Below are positions 17,819 to 64,000 of a stretch of 64,000 nt of DNA, one piece after another. The notes under the pieces were generated by a model. That model saw nothing but the letters and a program-made list of their open reading frames with translations, did no database searches and was not told the DNA's origin. This DNA comes from the human T2T-CHM13v2.0 reference genome, Homo sapiens. Numbering within the stretch: the first letter of the stretch is position 1; every line of letters starts with the position of its first letter. The position numbers and the translations under genes are program-made. The DNA is taken from NCBI RefSeq assembly GCF_009914755.1, contig NC_060927.1, one strand, 5' to 3'.

Positions 17819-19240
17819 TTCTATTATCTCTGGCCTATTGGACGGTCTTCATTTATCTTTTAAAGAAGGCTTTAGGGTTTGGGACCCAAACAGATGGGAA
17901 TGTGCCCTTATTTTTTTTTTTTTTTCTGTAAATCTAGTGAGCCCCTGAGCTGAGGGGTCTTTCAGAACGCGTACTTTGTATTTGTAGGCTCTGGTATCTA
18001 TATACTGAAAAATACTTTCAGTTGCAATACTTTATGTAATGTCCTAAAAAATGTGTTTTCAAAGACAGAAATCACTGCTATTTAGATGGTTTATTTTTCT
18101 AGAGCAAATAGTTCATAGTATTGACTTTCTAAAGCTATGTTTCTGTAAGTGTTCTTTTAGTCATGCAAATTCTAAAGTCATTTGAAGGGGATCTTACAGA
18201 TGTGCTTCGTTATTTTATTTTCTTAAATTCCATCCTAAATTGGGTCTGAGCATATTATGGTGGAATGGACTAGGAGTGAAAGATTGGTCGTTCTGGTTTG
18301 CCCTGGGCCATCCAAACAGCTGTGTAAGCAGCAGGTCCTGGAAATACTGGGCTCACGATTTTTGGATATGATTCAGTGATCAGCATGACTCCACTGCAGG
18401 ACCTCACTCACTGCTTGTAGCTGTTTCTCTGTGGTCATTCTGGAAGTCAAAATTCAATATGAATGCCTTGTGAGAAATGCTTTTAATGAACTATAAAAAT
18501 CAGCAGTCTGAAGAGAAGGTCATTTCTGATACAGTGATTATAGTCATTTCTGCACACCAATGCCAATTAAAGACTATAGATATGTAACAAGCAGGAGACA
18601 CACACTATTGCAACGGCAGCTGAATTATGACAACTGACAAAGCACATACCTGGAAGTTGGTGATTTCGCTATGAAAAGCAGGGTTCAGCCTCCTGTGTTT
18701 CACACTCGTCTTTCAAGTGCCCTCACAGTGAACTCTCCAAAATGCTTTAATTTTAAAAAATCATTTTGAATTCATGGACCTAGTGATTGTTTATATATTT
18801 TGTTAGCTCCTTCAGAAGATTAAATATTTAAGATTTTTTTTTAGATCATGGATTCGTGCAGCTTTTGAATTCTTTTGAAATAAAATTGCTCTTAATGAGA
18901 CATCTGAAAACATGAACAAACACTGAAGAAACAGAGTTCTCCAGAATAATGATGCTATTGTTAAGTGATTGAATAGTTGGGAGATTAATATCATGGTGTA
19001 CTGGCATGTTGGTTAATTCTAGCCATAATTTAACTGTAAAACCTACTTAAGGAAGCAGGAGGCTGAACGGCATGTCAAACACAAGGCACCCACACATAGA
19101 GCTCAACACAATAACAAATTAAGCACTGTTTATGTACAGACATAGTTGGCCTTATGTTTTTTTTCTTAATCTGTGATTTAGGTAATAATTGCACTATAAT
19201 TTTAACTCTCTATGCAGTTTGAATGTCTGCTTAATTGTTT

Positions 19241-19500
19241 TATTACCATTGTATTCAGTGATACTAATTGATGGTGCCAGTGAAATTTAGCTGTGTGTCC
19301 CTAAGTCTTTATGCACATAAGACTGGCATTGATTTAGTCTTGATAGCATATATCCTGTTTCTACTAGATTACTCTAAAATTGTTTGACCAAAGGCTACGG
19401 GGAAATTTTGGCCCAAGTGAAAATGTATAATTTAATTTGTGAAGAGTTTTCATATACTCTAAGCTTGGCTTTTCTTTTCCTTGAACATTTTGCCAAATTC
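19241..19500 (+). repeat. Left arm of a 260-bp inverted repeat
   Basis: Its reverse complement aligns without gaps to 19977-20236 with 10 mismatches (manual alignment). Confidence 0.97.
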
Positions 19501-19844
19501 CCTAAATGAGACCAAAGTGCCTTTTGCTTAAATTTTGGCATACCATGAAATGTCTTTCTGTATTAGCTATAGATTATGTGAACCTGTTGCTGTACAAAAT
19601 CATGCAAAAGGGAAAGAAAACAAGAGTCTCATGTAAAGTTCAAATGTACCATTTAGCTACTTCAGTTTTAGTAATTGCAGGGTTTTACTAACCTGAAAAG
19701 TTATCTTGACTCTTAACACAAAATTAATTTCTCCTTGTACCTAAGTTCAACAAAAATGCATGGAATTTCATGAGTTTGCGTTTATGTGCTTACATACATA
19801 TGTGTGTCATGAAGCTGTGTTTCAGACAGTGATAAGAAAATATC

Positions 19845-19970
19845 CTTAGTGATCTAATTAAAATGCAGATTCTGGTTCAGTATGTTTGGGATGGTGCTTT
19901 ATAACCTGCATTTTTAAGAAGCTCAAGGTGATGCCAAAGCTGTTGTTCCACAGACCACACTTTGAACACC
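19845..19970. mobile_element. MER5A fragment within the inverted-repeat spacer
   Basis: aaaatgcagattctggttcagta...cctgcatttttaagaagctcaaggtgatgcc...cagaccacactttga matches MER5A. Confidence 0.75.
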
Positions 19971-19976
19971 AAATGT

Positions 19977-20236
19977 GAATTTGGTAAAATGTTCAAGGAA
20001 AAGAAAAGCCAAGCTTAGAGTATATGAAAACTCTTCACAAATTAAATTATACATTTTCACTTGGGCCAAAATTTCCCCATAGCCTTTGGTCAAACAATTT
20101 TAGAGTAATCTAGTAGAAATAGGATATGTGCTATCAAGACTAAATCAATGCCAGTCTTATGTGCATAAAGACTTAGGCACACAGAGCTAAATTTCACTGG
20201 CACCATGTATTAGTATCAGTGAATACAATGGAAATA
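19977..20236 (-). repeat. Right arm of the 260-bp inverted repeat
   Basis: Reverse-complement copy of 19241-19500. Confidence 0.97.
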
Positions 20237-21609
20237 CAAAGCTAAATTTCCATAATTTGGAAATATTAGCTTTCCAAAAATATGTAAAAATATGATACTA
20301 TTCACTTGAATAAGTGAGAATCTATTAAGAACTTTTTTCTTGGTAGAGGACTAAATAATGCTTTACCTCTTTGCCTGTTGGCTACAGTTTAATCTTTCAA
20401 GGAATGCTATTGACACTTTCAGCAACTTGGTTTCTCCCCATTACTGTGGTCTCATCTATATAAATGTATATATGTGACAATGAAAATGGCTTCAGGACCA
20501 TGAAAAATTCCATAAATTTGGTTGCTTTTATACATTTTATGGTTTTTAAGTGAACTTAGGAGTCTACCGGCACTCTACATGCTGAAATTGTTGATGTGCT
20601 TGAAACATTCCATTCATCAAAAAGAAACAGTGGACCAGAAGATCTCTATGTCCTCTGGCTTCTGTGGTGGCAGATTCCCCAGAAGGCTTGCGGTTTGATG
20701 GGACTTAAGCTTGTTTAGATAACTGCACACAATACCCATATGTACCTCCAGAAAGGCTCAGCTTTAAATGCAGCCATTACACTTAGAAAAACATCATGTG
20801 GCATTAACCTAATCTGGAATAAGTTAAGTAGCTTACCCTAAGTACGTGGTAGAATACCGTAACTTTGTAGGACTGGGCTTTGGGGCTTTCCAGTACAGAA
20901 AGCCTTATAATATGTAATCTTTGAGAAATAACTTAAGATGGACACTTAATTGTATCTTCTAATTTTGTCTCTGTATTAACACCGAAAACATGGTTTTATT
21001 TGTACTGTTAAATATTTATTGCTTGGATTATTTCATACTCTCCTAACTAGTTTATTTCACATAAAATTGGCTTCCTTTTTCTTTTTTCTTTTTGTTTTTT
21101 TTACTGATGTTTGCTTGACAGTCTCATGAATTTGGTTTTCTAAGCTAGAAAAATCTTCTTCAGACCTAATGTAAATAAGCTACCTGAAATTAACAAAAAT
21201 CTTATGGAGACAGAACCATCTAAAGAAAAAGTGTTTGAAAACGAGGATGCTCTCTAGATAAAGTCATTTTCTAGTTGCTATTTTTGTGTGTATATTATAA
21301 CCAAACACACACACAAACTCAAGATGTTCCTCCAAAAGCATGGTGAATTATAGAGAAATGGTGGGACATAATATTACAAACATTTGTTCTTTCTAAAAAT
21401 CAGACCACATATTGGAACTAGTTTATGACTCAATAAGGTTACAGTTCAGCATTCTCGTAAATAGCAGGGAGGCCTATCTTGAAATGCCTAATTTAGATTT
21501 GTCCATCAAGTTTCATTAATGCATTATTTATTATTCTGTAAAGCCTAGAAATCTTACAAATAGTGATAACATTTTAACTCATAGTATGGGAAATATTAAA
21601 GAATTCTGC

Positions 21610-35057: not shown

Positions 35058-35426
<369 letters not shown>

Positions 35427-35513: not shown

Positions 35514-35763
<250 letters not shown>

Positions 35764-37907: not shown

Positions 37908-40862
37908 CATGAGCACTCAGGATAGTTGGTGAATATGTAGGTATGGGGTTGCCAAAAAGCATCTTTGCAATGCTGTATTAGGGAGTTCCTACTTTGGCTA
38001 GAGAAGGCCCACATAGAAAGAACTATAGTGTAAAATATATTTACTTCATTTATTTATTTCCCTTGAAAAGTTCAAACCCCCAAGGAAGTAGACTGTGGAT
38101 AGTATTTTATCTCCTCTAGCTGTAAGAAATGAAAGGATAGATAAGTGAATTGGATTTGTCTGAAAGCTTCTGGAGTCAGGAGGCACATGGGACTTGTGCT
38201 CAGGTGTCTATTTCCAGGCATTATTCAGCAATTTGGTCACATAATTTTCTCTAATATTAGATTTCTGCTTCCAATGGTGGGTGGCATAGTTGAAGAAAGA
38301 ACTTTATGAAGACATAAGGTCTTGATCTAAACCCTAAGAAGGGAAAGAGTAAGTAAATGAGGTTATATACCTGAAGGCATACTTTTTTACTTCAGAAATT
38401 TTTATTTTCCTTCGGAGTGTATAAAATCATGTACTTTTAATCTGCAGAGTAGTTTTCATTCTAATCTACTAGTATACTTTGATAAAAGCATAATTTCACA
38501 GGTATATTACATTCGTGGGTCTCGTGTTTATGGTGGTTACGTCTTTAAAAAAAATCTAAACCTTATTTATCTACATCAGTTGTTGACTTTGCAGATCACA
38601 GAGAATACAGAGCCAGTCATGCAGAAAGTACCTGTTTGTCATCCTGAGAGTTCAGACATGAACTGTAACCAGTGGCCCATTAAGTACCTTCTCTTGTTGT
38701 TTAAAGCATATCCTAGCTTTGCAAATTAATTGTTAATGCAGAATGTTGTAACGGAGCCATGGAATGAAATTCCTGTTACTCCAGTCATAGTAGATGTTGC
38801 GTCAAGTACTCTGAGTTGTGTTCCATTGTTTTGTGATTCTGTGCTGTCGGAAAGTCTGGCCTAGAGAGTGTTTAGAAATAAGGAAATCAAGAAATAGTAT
38901 GGTTTGCTTTTTTGGACTCTGTGTGTGATTTTCCATTGATAGTAATATTGTAATAATTTCTGAGAAATAAAATTCTTTTTCTTTGTTTATAAAAAAGTTA
39001 CTTGTCAAAATACTCACAAATGCTTTCCATAAGAAAACATTTAACATTTTTTGCTGTAAAAGTGATTACATATACTACATTTAATGCAGTAGAGGACATT
39101 CTTGTAATATTGATACAGTAGGACAATATGCATGCCATTGACTATTGTTAACAGTCCAGTTGTGAGATGAAATCCACTATGAAACACAGTAATGTTTAAT
39201 TTCATATTTAAGACAGAGCTAAATTTCAGTTTAGAAGGTTCTTATATAAAAATTTCAGGAACACCTTTATAAACCAATTAAGAAGGATTTTTGTCTTAAG
39301 GGTTTATGTGCCTGGTGTAAGATAGTTATACCTGATCTAATTTTTCTTTCTTTTTCTGATTTTTACTTCTCACATATTGTATTAATGGTGCTTGGTGTGG
39401 AAAAAAAAGATGCAGTGACATTTTCTTCTCTTATCCCTTATTTTCTACTCTAAGATACATATAATTTTGCAAATATTTATTTACCTTAATAGCTCAAACC
39501 TAGCTAACATTACAGCTAGTTAATGGGTATGATTGTAGGTACGATGAATCATTGTCTAGTAAAGAGACTGTTCAAATATGATTTTATTTTACTGGTTATT
39601 TTCCCAACAGAGAGACTCTTGGGGTGAAATAGAGCTCCAAAAAGAGTGTTTTGGGGGAGATGGGAAAGGGAGGATTGGGAGTTTTTAAAGGGAATAATCT
39701 CGTGTGGTAATAGGCATGAGGTAATAGTCATTTTGATAATATGAAACAAACAAAAAAGCTTCGAACAGGTGAGTATCTGTACAACTAGGTAGAGTGAGAA
39801 CATAATGAAATCCCTAACATTTAAAACTAACGATGTAAACTGTAAATGTAATTATCTTTTAGCAAATAACTTTACATGTCAATTTTCTCAGTGGAATTTT
39901 TTGACAGTCTAAGTAGTAATGTTTGAAGCTTTGGGGACAGAATCTTTACCCCCTTCCACTTCTCATCATTCTCAGAGAATGCCGAGGGCTGGAGACATTT
40001 TTATATAGCTGATAGCAGGGAGAGCATCATTGGAAGAAGAGCTAACATTAATAATACTTACTCTGTGTCGGCCACTGTCCTCAGCACGTTAGGTAAACCC
40101 CATTTTACCTTCACAAAAAGCCTATAAAGAAGACAATATTATCCTCATCTTATATACTTACAAAAATATTTATATCATTACAAATAATTCAAATCATTAT
40201 TTAAATAAATGTATTTATATTATTATAGATGATCAAATGATGCAAAAAGCACATATTACTTACTTAGCCAACCAAATATACCCAGGCTAAATTAGGATTT
40301 GAACCATGATAGTTTGGTGTCTCCGTATATTCTTTTAACTACTATATTACATTGCTCCTGGAGCCTAATATAGTGGATTCCCAAAGACATAAATGTTGAT
40401 TGAACTAGGAGATTTGACATATTTAGCTTCTCATTTTTGCAGATGAAGAAACTGTGTCTTAGTGAAGTTGGGTTAAACTCTGCAGTGTTACAACACAAGG
40501 TGAGAGTCAGAGCTGGATGCAAACCCTGTTCAGTCTAGCACCAAGGTCCATGCTTTCTTCCATGAATCCACAGAGTGCGATTTACTGTGATCACAATCAC
40601 ATGTGATCCTCTTTTGGCTGCCTGTGACAGCCTGACAAGTTTATTTTTGAAGCTCAACCCATTGCTTACATAGGGAAGAACATTCCTAAGTTATAAAGAA
40701 GAACTGGTGAAAGGACATCATCCAGGTGTGAAATGGGAATCCAGAGCTTGTTTTCTTGGTTTATGCATGCTCAGTTGTGTGTGCCCCGATGTTCATTAGA
40801 GTGTTTTAAGTGTCTTCAATGGGTTACAATAACATGGGTTTTTTTCTCTCTCTCTCTTTCAG

Positions 40863-40921
40863 GTATGGAAAAATTGTATCTACAAAGGCAATTCTTGACA
40901 AAAACACAAATCAGTGCAAAG
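40863..40921 (+). CDS. RBMS3: RBMS3 internal coding exon (59 nt, probably exon 3), part of RRM1
   Basis: Polypyrimidine tract ...tttttctctctctctctttcAG at 40839-40862 and donor AAG|GTATGT at 40921/40922. The translation (g) TAT GGA AAA... = YGKIVSTKAILDKNTNQCK-G matches the RBMS family RRM1 just before RNP1 (KGYGFVDF). The NTNQCK residues match RBMS3 rather than RBMS1 (TTNKCK) as I recall them. Confidence 0.95.
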
Positions 40922-44133: not shown

Positions 44134-44617
<484 letters not shown>

Positions 44618-47831: not shown

Positions 47832-48138
47832 TTTCTTTCTTTCTTTTTTTTTTTTTTTTGAGACATAGTCTTCTTCTGTCACCCAGGCTGGAGTGCAGTG
47901 GTGCGATCTTGGCTCACTGTAACCTCCACCTCCAGCAATTATTCTCCTGCCTCAGCCTCCCGAGTAGCTGGGATTACAGGTGCGCGCCACCATGCCCCAT
48001 TAATTTTTTTTTGTATTTTTATTAGAGACAAGGTTTCACCATGTGGGCCAGGCTGGTTGAACTCCTGACCTCAAGTGATCCACTTGCCTCGGCCTCCCAA
48101 AATGCTGGGATTACAGGTGTGAGCCACTGCGCCCGGTC
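47832..48138 (-). mobile_element. AluSx-like with a small internal deletion
   Basis: Full antisense Alu. TSD gaaataca(t/g)atttct. Confidence 0.93.
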
Positions 48139-60629: not shown

Positions 60630-61882
<1,253 letters not shown>

Positions 61883-63514: not shown

Positions 63515-63774
63515 TAATATTGTTGACTATTTGCAGCATTGCTTTAGTTATGTTAGCATTGTTTATTTTTTCCTATAAAGATATGAGCAGATGCTATGCA
63601 TTTCTCTTGTTTAAAATTACAAGTTATTGTGTGCCCACTCTGTGCTAAAATCTATTCTGCATGTTTTACAAATATTTTATTATGAAAAGATTTGAGTTTC
63701 CTTTTGGTTAGTGATAAAGGAGAAAATCTTTCAACAGATGCCATGAGAACTGATTAAAATAAAAAGTTAATTTT

Positions 63775-64000
63775 GGCCGGGCGTGGTGGCTCACGCCTGT
63801 AATCCCAACACTTTGGGAGGCCAAGGTGGGTGGATCACGAGGTGAGGAGATCAAGACCTATTGGCTAACATGGTGAAACTCCGCCTCTACTAAAAATACA
63901 AAAAATTAGTGGGACATGGCGGCATGCACCTGTAATCCCAGCTACTTGGGAGGCTGAGGCGGGAGAATCACTTGAATCCAGGAGCAGAGGTTACAGTGAG
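63775..64000 (+). mobile_element. Alu (S-type), cut by the window end
   Basis: ggccgggcgtggtggctcacgcctgtaatccc... Confidence 0.95.

What the first reader, a model, noticed from the sequence alone, without database searches (positions are those of the whole stretch)
19241..20236. 260-bp near-perfect inverted duplication of unique intronic DNA: a predicted long dsRNA stem in RBMS3 pre-mRNA
Seen: 19241-19500 and the reverse complement of 19977-20236 align with no gaps and 10 mismatches (~96%), around a 476-bp spacer. I do not recognise the arms as any transposon, so this is not an ordinary inverted Alu or MITE hairpin. Six mismatches fall in the outer 60 bp and only four in the inner 200 bp. 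On the sense transcript three of those four become G-U wobbles and one is an A-C mismatch, so the inner 200 bp are almost continuously paired (3 of 4 is too few to be statistically meaningful). Established: stems of this length and identity are substrates for ADAR and potentially for Drosha/Dicer or dsRNA sensors, and DNA inverted repeats promote spacer inversion and arm-to-arm conversion. Inference: this could be a non-repeat editing or small-RNA-producing hairpin, or a recurrently inverting 476-bp segment. The identity gradient hints at homogenisation by gene conversion.
Basis: partly seen in the sequence, partly recalled or inferred. Interest (0 to 1): 0.8.

Follow-up and report, generated by a model that had tools for sequence, protein, structure and literature searches.

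The report
Inverted duplication hairpin in RBMS3 intron
A 263-base stretch of single-copy intron DNA in the human RBMS3 gene was copied in reverse orientation about 480 bases away, so the pre-mRNA can fold into a long double-stranded stem; it looks like a fairly recent, probably harmless copying accident, not a functional element.

Summary
19241-19500 pairs without gaps with the reverse complement of 19977-20236, with 10 mismatches. The homology runs to 19238/20239 and stops sharply on all four sides. The arms, both flanks and most of the spacer are single-copy in the T2T genome, so this is not an Alu pair or a detectable transposon family. Only the right end of the spacer (about 19814-19974) is an old MER5A1-like MITE. 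The sense RNA folds into the predicted stem: 250 Watson-Crick pairs, 3 G-U and 7 mismatches of 260, MFE -528 kcal/mol.

The gene-conversion-gradient reading is not supported. All outer mismatches are transversions (6 of 6, or 8 of 8 if extended) and all 4 inner ones are transitions (Fisher p=0.005/0.002; control repeats have 45 transitions of 66).

Best reading: one local inverted duplication by template switching or break repair, roughly 10-20 My old, with an error-prone patch at one end, probably neutral.

Left unexplained: a CYWAAT-like motif at all four arm boundaries and a 7/8 direct repeat flanking the unit.

Editing, small RNAs, spacer inversion and the ancestral state could not be tested. 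Interest is low to moderate.

The parts
19229..19236 (+). 8-mer GCTTAATT, one nt outside the left arm. It is a 7/8 direct repeat of 20241-20248.
   Evidence: 7 of 8 match at symmetric offset 1. Empirical null in this window is 0.35% (4 symmetric offsets) or 0.99% (16 offset pairs), N=20000. Unexplained.
19238..19500 (+).
   Evidence: Single copy in the genome apart from the other arm.
19237..19299 (+). Outer zone of the left arm (partner 20178-20240): 8 mismatches in 63-64 nt, all transversions (4 C/G, 2 A/T, 2 G/T; one tandem pair at 19269-19270).
   Evidence: The control inverted repeats in the window have 45 transitions of 66 mismatches.
19300..19500 (+). Inner zone of the left arm (partner 19977-20177): 4 mismatches in 201 nt, all transitions (one at a CpG). 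Longest uninterrupted duplex is 102 bp counting G-U, or 93 bp Watson-Crick only.
19501..19976 (+). Spacer (476 nt). 19501-19841 is single copy, with no internal inverted symmetry.
19814..19974 (+). Old MER5A1-like hAT MITE at the right end of the spacer. Its 3' terminus lies 2-3 nt from the inner edge of the right arm.
   Evidence: at least 134 first-look candidates genome-wide, 39 scored non-self hits at 73-82% identity to 19842-19973; alignment of 14 copies places the family's ends; weak Rfam mir-544 match (36.8 bits, gathering 66.5). PMC7345915 lists miR-544a/b as MER5A1-derived.
19968..19985 (+). 7-bp inverted micro-repeat (ACCAAAT / ATTTGGT, 4-nt loop) straddling the spacer/right-arm junction.
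   Evidence: Read. Its significance was not tested.
19977..20239 (-). Right arm (263 nt), reverse complement of the left arm.
20240..20250 (+). 11-mer AGCTAAATTTC that starts the right flank. It is identical to 20185-20195 inside the right arm (and to the reverse complement of 19282-19292), and contains the 8-mer 20241-20248.
   Evidence: 5 exact matches in the window against 0.08 expected; no longer direct homology between flank and arm (p=0.13).

Best explanation
A single local structural mutation copied about 263 bp of ordinary, single-copy RBMS3 intron DNA in reverse orientation 476 bp away. The likely mechanism is a replicative template switch or fold-back repair of a break, the small-scale counterpart of 'inverted duplication with a single-copy spacer'. 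The new DNA nearest one junction (the outer ~60 bp) was made or repaired by an error-prone process, probably translesion bypass on exposed single-stranded DNA, which left a cluster of transversions. The rest has since gained only ordinary transitions. The 4 differences in 201 nt place the event very roughly 10-20 My ago (95% range about 3-50 My), within the primate lineage. It has no demonstrated function. Its direct consequence is that the RBMS3 pre-mRNA can form a 260-bp, 97%-paired intramolecular duplex. As a long nuclear dsRNA this would be expected to be bound and promiscuously edited by ADAR and removed with the intron. Shown here: the repeat, its uniqueness, sharp edges, two-zone mismatch spectrum and predicted fold. 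Inferred: the mechanism, the age, neutrality and editing.
For: (1) Architecture: two arms in inverted orientation around a non-duplicated 476-nt spacer, with abrupt ends on all four sides. Human fold-back inverted duplications have this layout, with a normal-copy spacer of 766-70,466 bp in 21 of 21 sequenced junctions (PMC3907307, passages). Short-range template switches are documented to create inverted repeats and hairpins in great-ape genomes (PMC7954356, passages). (2) Not a mobile family: the arms, the outer 64 nt of each arm and both flanks hit only themselves in the 3.1-Gb genome. The same tool readily found at least 134 candidates at 73-82% identity for the MER5-like piece. GC content is about 0.33, like the surroundings, and there are no frames above 61 codons. 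(3) Two mutational regimes: outer 0 transitions of 6 (0 of 8 extended), inner 4 transitions of 4; Fisher p=0.0048 / 0.0020. Density is 6/60 against 4/200 (binomial 0.013). The four other inverted repeats in the window show 45 transitions, 12 complement-type and 9 other transversions of 66. C>G transversions occur in clusters, near de novo CNV breakpoints, and are attributed to imperfect double-strand-break repair (PMC6511033, passages). Four of the outer mismatches are C/G and one is part of a tandem pair. (4) Fold: sense RNA MFE is -528 kcal/mol with the full stem. Single-stranded DNA gives -324.8 kcal/mol with the same stem. Pairing is 250 WC + 3 G-U of 260.
Against: No other species or other human assembly could be examined. 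The ancestral state, which arm is the copy, and the age are therefore all inferred. My junction reading found no clear inverted microhomology under either polarity (0-4 nt, read by eye, not a formal test). Thirteen of 21 fold-back junctions in PMC3907307 had 2-8 bp. A template switch does not predict the 7/8 direct repeat that flanks the whole unit. It also does not predict the similar CYWAAT-type 6-9-mers next to all four arm boundaries (S=33 against a null of 19.8±2.9; 1 of 5000 random placements reach it; 0 of 2500 for k=6, 7, 8). Nor does it predict the 11-mer shared by the right flank and the arm interior. The transversion cluster lies at only one of the two junctions of the copy. The statistics on spectrum and motifs were devised after seeing the data. 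Arm identity could partly reflect gene conversion, which would make the age an underestimate.
Confidence: 0.6

Rival explanations
1. The 1,004-bp unit 19237-20240 is, or was inserted like, a mobile element. It would be a long-TIR non-autonomous DNA transposon, or a one-off mobilised segment, with an 8-bp target-site duplication and a preference for CYWAAT-like sites.
For: A 7/8 direct repeat lies exactly one nt outside each arm end (null 0.35-1%). The inverted repeat reaches the ends of the unit. Similar 6-9-mers sit at all four arm boundaries. An 8-bp duplication is typical of hAT elements (recalled), and a hAT MITE lies inside the unit.
Against: No other copy of any part of the arms exists in the genome, whereas a family would have copies. 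The termini do not look like the CAG/TAG-type hAT ends seen in the MER5-like copies (general hAT motif recalled). The interior is ordinary single-copy DNA plus an old resident MITE. If the whole unit had been inserted, a donor copy should exist unless it was excised. Human DNA transposons are thought to have been inactive for about 37 My or more (recalled), while the inner arms differ by only 2%.
Confidence: 0.08
2. An old palindrome kept similar by arm-to-arm gene conversion or by selection on the RNA or DNA hairpin. This would be a functional editing, small-RNA or structural element.
For: The inner 200 bp are 98% identical with runs of 93-102 paired bases. Three of the 4 inner mismatches are G-U on the sense strand (P=0.31 by chance, so no weight). 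The MITE terminus coincides with the inner arm edge, as it might if an old insertion had bounded a conversion tract.
Against: There is no graded decay of homology beyond the arms. The outer zone has 0 transitions of 6-8, unlike ordinary long-term divergence. No compensatory pairs can be assessed from a single sequence. No Rfam family matches the arms. No paper found mentions the locus. Long near-perfect dsRNAs are reported as selected against even in pre-mRNA (PMC7006430).
Confidence: 0.12
3. Two-step origin. A pre-existing short inverted repeat (the outer ~60 bp, about 87% alike) served as homology for a later template switch that extended the repeat inward by about 200 bp.
For: There are two identity tiers: 8/64 against 4/201 mismatches. 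Homeologous 60-nt pairing would be a far better primer than microhomology (inference).
Against: An older repeat should carry mostly transitions, but it has none. The outer 64 nt are unique in the genome, so their own origin would still need an inverted duplication.
Confidence: 0.12
4. Assembly or sequencing artefact (a palindromic chimera).
For: None specific. Palindromic chimeric reads are a known artefact class (recalled).
Against: The arms differ at 10-12 positions, including a CpG transition and a structured spectrum. Artefactual fold-back copies would be identical (inference). The source is a T2T assembly according to the hub's note.
Confidence: 0.02

Closest known systems
Fold-back inverted duplications with a single-copy spacer (Hermetz et al. 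2014, PMC3907307; passages read)
   Same: Non-inverted copy, normal-copy spacer, inverted copy. The spacer here (476 bp) is just below their range of 766-70,466 bp.
   Different: Those are megabase duplications next to terminal deletions, formed through dicentric chromosomes. This one is 263 bp, interstitial and fixed in a reference genome. The 2-8 bp inverted microhomology at the spacer edge that they report could not be shown here.
Short-range template-switch mutations in great apes (Walker et al. 2021, PMC7954356; passages read)
   Same: A local replication error that writes a reverse-complement copy of nearby sequence and creates a hairpin-forming inverted repeat.
   Different: The paper describes events templated from regions within tens to hundreds of nucleotides. 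Here 263 nt were copied across a 476-nt gap. I did not read that paper's event-length distribution.
Inverted Alu pairs as intronic dsRNA and ADAR substrates
   Same: A long intramolecular duplex of about 260-300 bp in a pre-mRNA intron, with a loop of a few hundred nt.
   Different: The arms are single-copy DNA, not Alu. Pairing is 97%, against the 84-91% of the inverted repeat pairs in this window.
Catalogued 'long, nearly perfect' human dsRNAs (Barak et al. 2020, PMC7006430; dsRNAscan preprint, PMC11838218)
   Same: Same kind of object. There are 197 human inverted duplicated sequences >300 bp and >96% in RefSeq transcripts. dsRNAscan predicts 31,017 dsRNAs >96% paired and 2,018 also >300 bp, mostly inverted LINEs and 88% intergenic.
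   Different: This stem is 260-263 bp, under both >300 bp cut-offs, and is non-repetitive. That class has medians of only 75-144 bp in dsRNAscan. I could not see either paper's tables, so I do not know whether this locus is listed. RBMS3 does not occur in the dsRNAscan main text.
hAT-type MITEs such as MER5A1
   Same: Terminal inverted repeats and an 8-bp flanking direct repeat. One such MITE sits in the spacer.
   Different: There is no family (single copy), the arms are ten times longer than usual hAT TIRs (recalled), and the terminal motif is different.

Membership tests
Transposable element with terminal inverted repeats (MITE / hAT-like) | Multiple dispersed copies in the genome | tested here: not met
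   only the two arms match; the flanks are unique. Positive control: the MER5-like segment gave at least 134 candidates. Very old or very small families could escape this search, and Dfam was not available.
Transposable element with terminal inverted repeats (MITE / hAT-like) | Target-site duplication flanking the inverted repeats | tested here: inconclusive
   A 7/8 direct 8-mer lies one nt outside each arm (null 0.35-1%). It is part of a motif also found at the inner boundaries.
Transposable element with terminal inverted repeats (MITE / hAT-like) | Family-typical terminal motif | tested here: not met
   The unit's ends do not resemble the CAGTG-type start seen in the 14 MER5-like copies. 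The general hAT motif is recalled.
Inverted Alu pair | Arms are Alu elements | tested here: not met
   The arm is single copy. An Alu would be a very common sequence. The arm does not appear among the hub's listed masked stretches (the longest ones only).
Template-switch / fold-back inverted duplication | Inverted copy next to the original with a non-duplicated spacer and sharp junctions | tested here: met
Template-switch / fold-back inverted duplication | Inverted microhomology at the spacer/duplication junction | tested here: inconclusive
   Read by eye: 0-4 nt depending on the polarity assumed. A 7-bp inverted micro-repeat straddles the junction at 19968-19985 but is not in the register the model predicts.
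Template-switch / fold-back inverted duplication | Derived state: one arm absent in outgroup species | not testable with these tools
   No primate or mammalian genomes are held. The genome search states that the own genome has no relatives.
Known structured RNA / miRNA family (Rfam 15) | Covariance-model match in the arms | tested here: not met
   (E up to 1): no match in the arms. The only nearby match is a sub-threshold mir-544 hit inside the MITE (36.8 bits against a gathering score of 66.5).
'Long and nearly perfect' dsRNA class (>300 bp and >96%) | Stem longer than 300 bp | tested here: not met
   260-263 bp.
'Long and nearly perfect' dsRNA class (>300 bp and >96%) | More than 96% identity or pairing | tested here: met
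   96.2% identity. 97.3% paired on the sense strand counting G-U.
ADAR-edited hairpin / endo-siRNA hairpin locus | A-to-G clusters or 21-23-nt reads mapping to both arms | not testable with these tools
   No RNA data are held. Literature searches found no paper on this locus.

The most novel reading that the evidence does not exclude
The unit is not a simple replication slip. It would be the footprint of an undescribed, site-preferring insertion/duplication process active in recent primate evolution. Each arm is bounded on both sides by the same CYWAAT-type motif in direct orientation, and the whole 1,004-bp unit is flanked by an 8-bp near-duplicate. This would mean staggered cuts at a recognised motif, made by a transposase-like or nuclease activity that mobilised single-copy DNA. 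The result would be a lineage-specific, non-repeat hairpin-RNA locus inside RBMS3.
Probability: 0.06. Interest if true: 0.7.

Novelty: new member of a known kind. Interest (0 to 1): 0.3.

Why it matters
This is a clean, datable example of how a long, near-perfect RNA hairpin can arise de novo from unique sequence rather than from paired transposons. It also carries an internal record of the event, a transversion-only patch at one end, which bears on how error-prone small replicative rearrangements are in the germline. For dsRNA biology it is one more candidate nuclear ADAR substrate without the mapping ambiguity of Alu. That makes it a convenient test locus for editing, dsRNA-binding-protein or duplex-mapping assays in RBMS3-expressing cells. 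At the DNA level, a 263-bp, 96% inverted repeat with a sub-kilobase spacer could mediate spacer inversion or fork stalling. Closely spaced inverted Alu pairs are reported to be under-represented (PMC3215922, search listing only). None of this makes it exceptional: thousands of comparable predicted duplexes are already catalogued.

Tried and rejected
1. Extension of the palindrome. Gapped local alignments of the outer flanks and of the spacer halves against shuffles gave p=0.60, 0.08 and 0.54, so there is no graded homology.

2. Direct homology between flanks, arms and spacer ends. Seven comparisons gave p=0.13-0.97, so nothing beyond the short motifs.

3. Polarising the event with the MITE's own target-site duplication. 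The 8-mers before and after the MITE (19806-13, 19975-82) match only at GT..GAA with a 3-nt gap. This is too weak to say which arm is ancestral.

4. Microhomology models for both polarities and both strands, worked through by eye. None fitted convincingly.

5. The G-U excess on the sense strand is 3 of 4, P=0.31, and carries no weight.

6. The Rfam mir-544 hit is explained by the MER5A1 origin of that miRNA family. It is sub-threshold and not a miRNA call.

7. The 16-mer shared with window 39213-39228 occurs only 5 times in the genome, but there is no extended similarity. Left as a curiosity.

9. A random-sample base rate of such repeats in the genome was considered and dropped. The roughly 2 Mb obtainable would contain about 0-1 cases, so published counts were used instead.

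10. Coding potential: only stop-to-stop frames of 52-61 codons.

Full report
**The observation.** The repeat finder returns one inverted pair, 19238-19519 / 19958-20239 (282 nt, 93%). Homology runs three nt further out, to 19238/20239. The spacer is 476 nt. Within the 64-kb window it is the longest and most similar of the 5 inverted pairs of 80 nt or more within 5 kb. The other four are 87-152 nt at 84-91% and lie in stretches the hub lists as masked repeats.

**What the pieces are.** The window's own genome (3.1 Gb, 24 contigs) was searched with the 260-nt arm and with the outer 64 nt of each arm. Only the two arms came back, and the first look produced just 2 candidates each time. The 600 nt on either side are also single copy.

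The spacer is single copy except for its right end. Window 19842-19973 matches an interspersed family: at least 134 candidates, 40 scored, 39 non-self at 73-82% identity (repeated). This serves as a positive control for the search's sensitivity. Rfam gives a sub-threshold mir-544 match at 19842-19937 (36.8 bits, gathering 66.5). miR-544a/b are listed as MER5A1-derived (PMC7345915, table passage). I therefore call it a MER5A1-like hAT MITE; Dfam was not available to confirm the name.

Aligning 14 copies with their flanks places the family's ends at about 19814 and 19974. The MITE's 3' terminus is therefore 2-3 nt from the inner edge of the right arm. Rfam has nothing in the arms. There are no frames above 61 codons, and GC is about 0.33 as in the surroundings. 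The arms are thus ordinary unique intron DNA, not an Alu pair and not a detectable transposon family.

**Edges.** Gapped local alignments find no inverted similarity beyond the arms. The outer flanks give p=0.60 and the spacer parts p=0.08 and 0.54. The homology stops abruptly on all four sides.

**Mismatch pattern.** The six outer mismatches (19245-19299) are all transversions between complementary bases: four C/G and two A/T, including a tandem pair at 19269-70. If the arms are taken to 19237/20240, two G/T transversions are added. The four inner mismatches (19349-19492) are all transitions, one at a CpG.
- Fisher's test on zone against class gives p=0.0048 (0.0020 extended).
- Density is 6/60 against 4/200 (binomial 0.013).
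- The other four inverted repeats of the window, used as an internal control, have 45 transitions, 12 complement-type and 9 other transversions of 66 (all).

An outer zone that was simply older, or that escaped gene conversion, should be dominated by transitions; it has none. These tests were chosen after seeing the data.

**Structure.** The 1,018-nt sense RNA folds with the complete stem at -528 kcal/mol (no shuffles above 1000 nt). The 1,004-nt DNA strand gives -324.8 kcal/mol with the same stem. On the sense strand 250 of 260 positions are Watson-Crick, 3 are G-U and 7 are unpaired. The longest uninterrupted run is 102 bp (93 bp without G-U). On the antisense strand the counts are 250, 1 and 9. 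Three G-U of four has a chance probability of 0.31.

**Most likely origin.** The layout of copy, single-copy spacer and inverted copy with sharp junctions is that of fold-back or template-switch inverted duplications. Hermetz et al. found a normal-copy spacer of 766-70,466 bp in all 21 sequenced junctions (PMC3907307, passages). Walker et al. describe short-range template switches that create inverted repeats in great-ape genomes (PMC7954356, passages).

A transversion-only patch at one end fits error-prone synthesis or lesion bypass on single-stranded DNA during such an event. Gao et al. summarise that C>G transversions occur in clusters, near de novo CNV breakpoints, and point to imperfect double-strand-break repair (PMC6511033, passages). 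The link to abasic-site bypass is my inference from general knowledge.

The inner zone has 4 differences in 201 nt (1.99%). With recalled rates of 0.5-1.0e-9 per site per year, this gives about 10-20 My (Poisson 95% range 2.7-51 My), assuming no conversion. I put this explanation at about 0.6.

**What it does not explain.**
- *Flanking direct repeat.* One nt outside each arm end lies an 8-mer direct repeat, 19229-36 and 20241-48, matching 7 of 8. The empirical null is 0.35% for symmetric offsets and 0.99% for 16 offset pairs.
- *Boundary motif.* All four arm boundaries are adjoined, in direct orientation, by similar CYWAAT-type words. The summed pairwise identity of the four 8-mers is 33 of 48, against a null of 19.8±2.9. 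One of 5000 random placements reaches it, and 1 of 3000 GC-matched placements.
- *Word-length dependence.* The signal holds for k=6, 7 and 8 (0 of 2500 each) and k=9 (2 of 2500). It is weaker at k=5 (0.016) and disappears at k=10 and 12 (0.47, 0.88), where the registers no longer align.
- *Shared 11-mer.* The right flank begins with an 11-mer identical to one inside the arm, 55 nt upstream. There are 5 exact matches in the window against 0.08 expected, three of them in this structure.
- *Micro-repeat.* A 7-bp inverted micro-repeat straddles the spacer/right-arm junction (19968-19985).

I could not fit these to a microhomology model under either polarity (by eye). They keep alive a transposon-like or staggered-cut insertion reading (about 0.06-0.08). 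That reading is otherwise contradicted by the absence of any other copy. A two-step origin, with a short older repeat extended inward, and an old palindrome kept alike by conversion or selection each get about 0.12. Both founder on the transition-free outer zone.

**Function.** Nothing here shows one. The repeat lies about 20.6 kb upstream of the only RBMS3 exon in the window (40863-40921, hub table). An effect on splicing or back-splicing of that exon is therefore not expected (inference). Long, nearly perfect duplexes are reported to be rare and selected against, weakly so in pre-mRNA (PMC7006430, abstract and passages: 197 human cases >300 bp and >96% in RefSeq transcripts). dsRNAscan predicts 5,134,754 human dsRNAs. 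Of these, 31,017 are >96% paired and 2,018 are also >300 bp, mostly between inverted LINEs. Non-repetitive ones have a median of only 75-144 bp (PMC11838218, passages).

This stem is unusually long and tight for a non-repeat duplex, but it falls under both 300-bp cut-offs. It belongs to a class that is already catalogued. I could not see either paper's supplementary tables, so it may be listed there. That it would be edited by ADAR follows from established substrate preferences, not from data.

**Literature on the locus.** Searches for RBMS3 with 'inverted repeat' (5 papers) and with 'A-to-I' and 'intron' (6 papers) gave nothing on this structure. I read passages of two of them, and both concern RBMS3 as an RNA-binding protein. 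Only open-access full text was searched.

**Verdict.** This is a real feature. It is a new member of a known kind: a small, lineage-specific inverted duplication that creates a long intronic hairpin. It is probably neutral. It has two details worth a specialist's glance, the two-regime mismatch spectrum and the shared boundary motif. Primate alignments would settle the origin in an afternoon.

Noticed in passing
window 19814-19974: Old MER5A1-like hAT MITE at the right end of the spacer. It has a sub-threshold Rfam mir-544 match at 19842-19937. Its 3' end lies 2-3 nt from the inner edge of the right arm.
   Followed up: yes
window 19229-19236 and 20241-20248: An 8-mer direct repeat (7 of 8) lies one nt outside each end of the inverted repeat, resembling a target-site duplication.
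   Followed up: partly
window 19230, 19493, 19502, 19969, 20187, 20242 (motif starts): There are six CYWAATK motifs in 1.3 kb where about 1.2 are expected (0.89 per kb in the window). Five of them abut arm boundaries.
   Followed up: partly
window 20181-20196 and 39213-39228: A 16-mer from the right arm occurs only 5 times in the whole genome, yet twice within this window, 19 kb apart. There is no extended similarity around the second copy.
   Followed up: partly
window 19385-19415 and 19509-19540: The left arm and the start of the spacer share two exact blocks (8 and 10 nt) in direct orientation, separated by 10-12 unrelated nt. This is not significant by local alignment (p=0.24).
   Followed up: partly
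window 35157-35308 / 35569-35720; 61425-61637 / 63772-63983; 44341-44430 / 47844-47933: Other inverted repeat pairs (84-91%, 87-152 nt) lie in stretches listed as masked repeats. They are presumably inverted SINE or LINE pairs that would also form intronic duplexes. They were used only as a mismatch-spectrum control.
   Followed up: partly
window 18693-18780 and 20772-20802: Two chance-level Rfam matches: FTX_2 at E=0.87 and SNORD83 at E=0.83.
   Followed up: no
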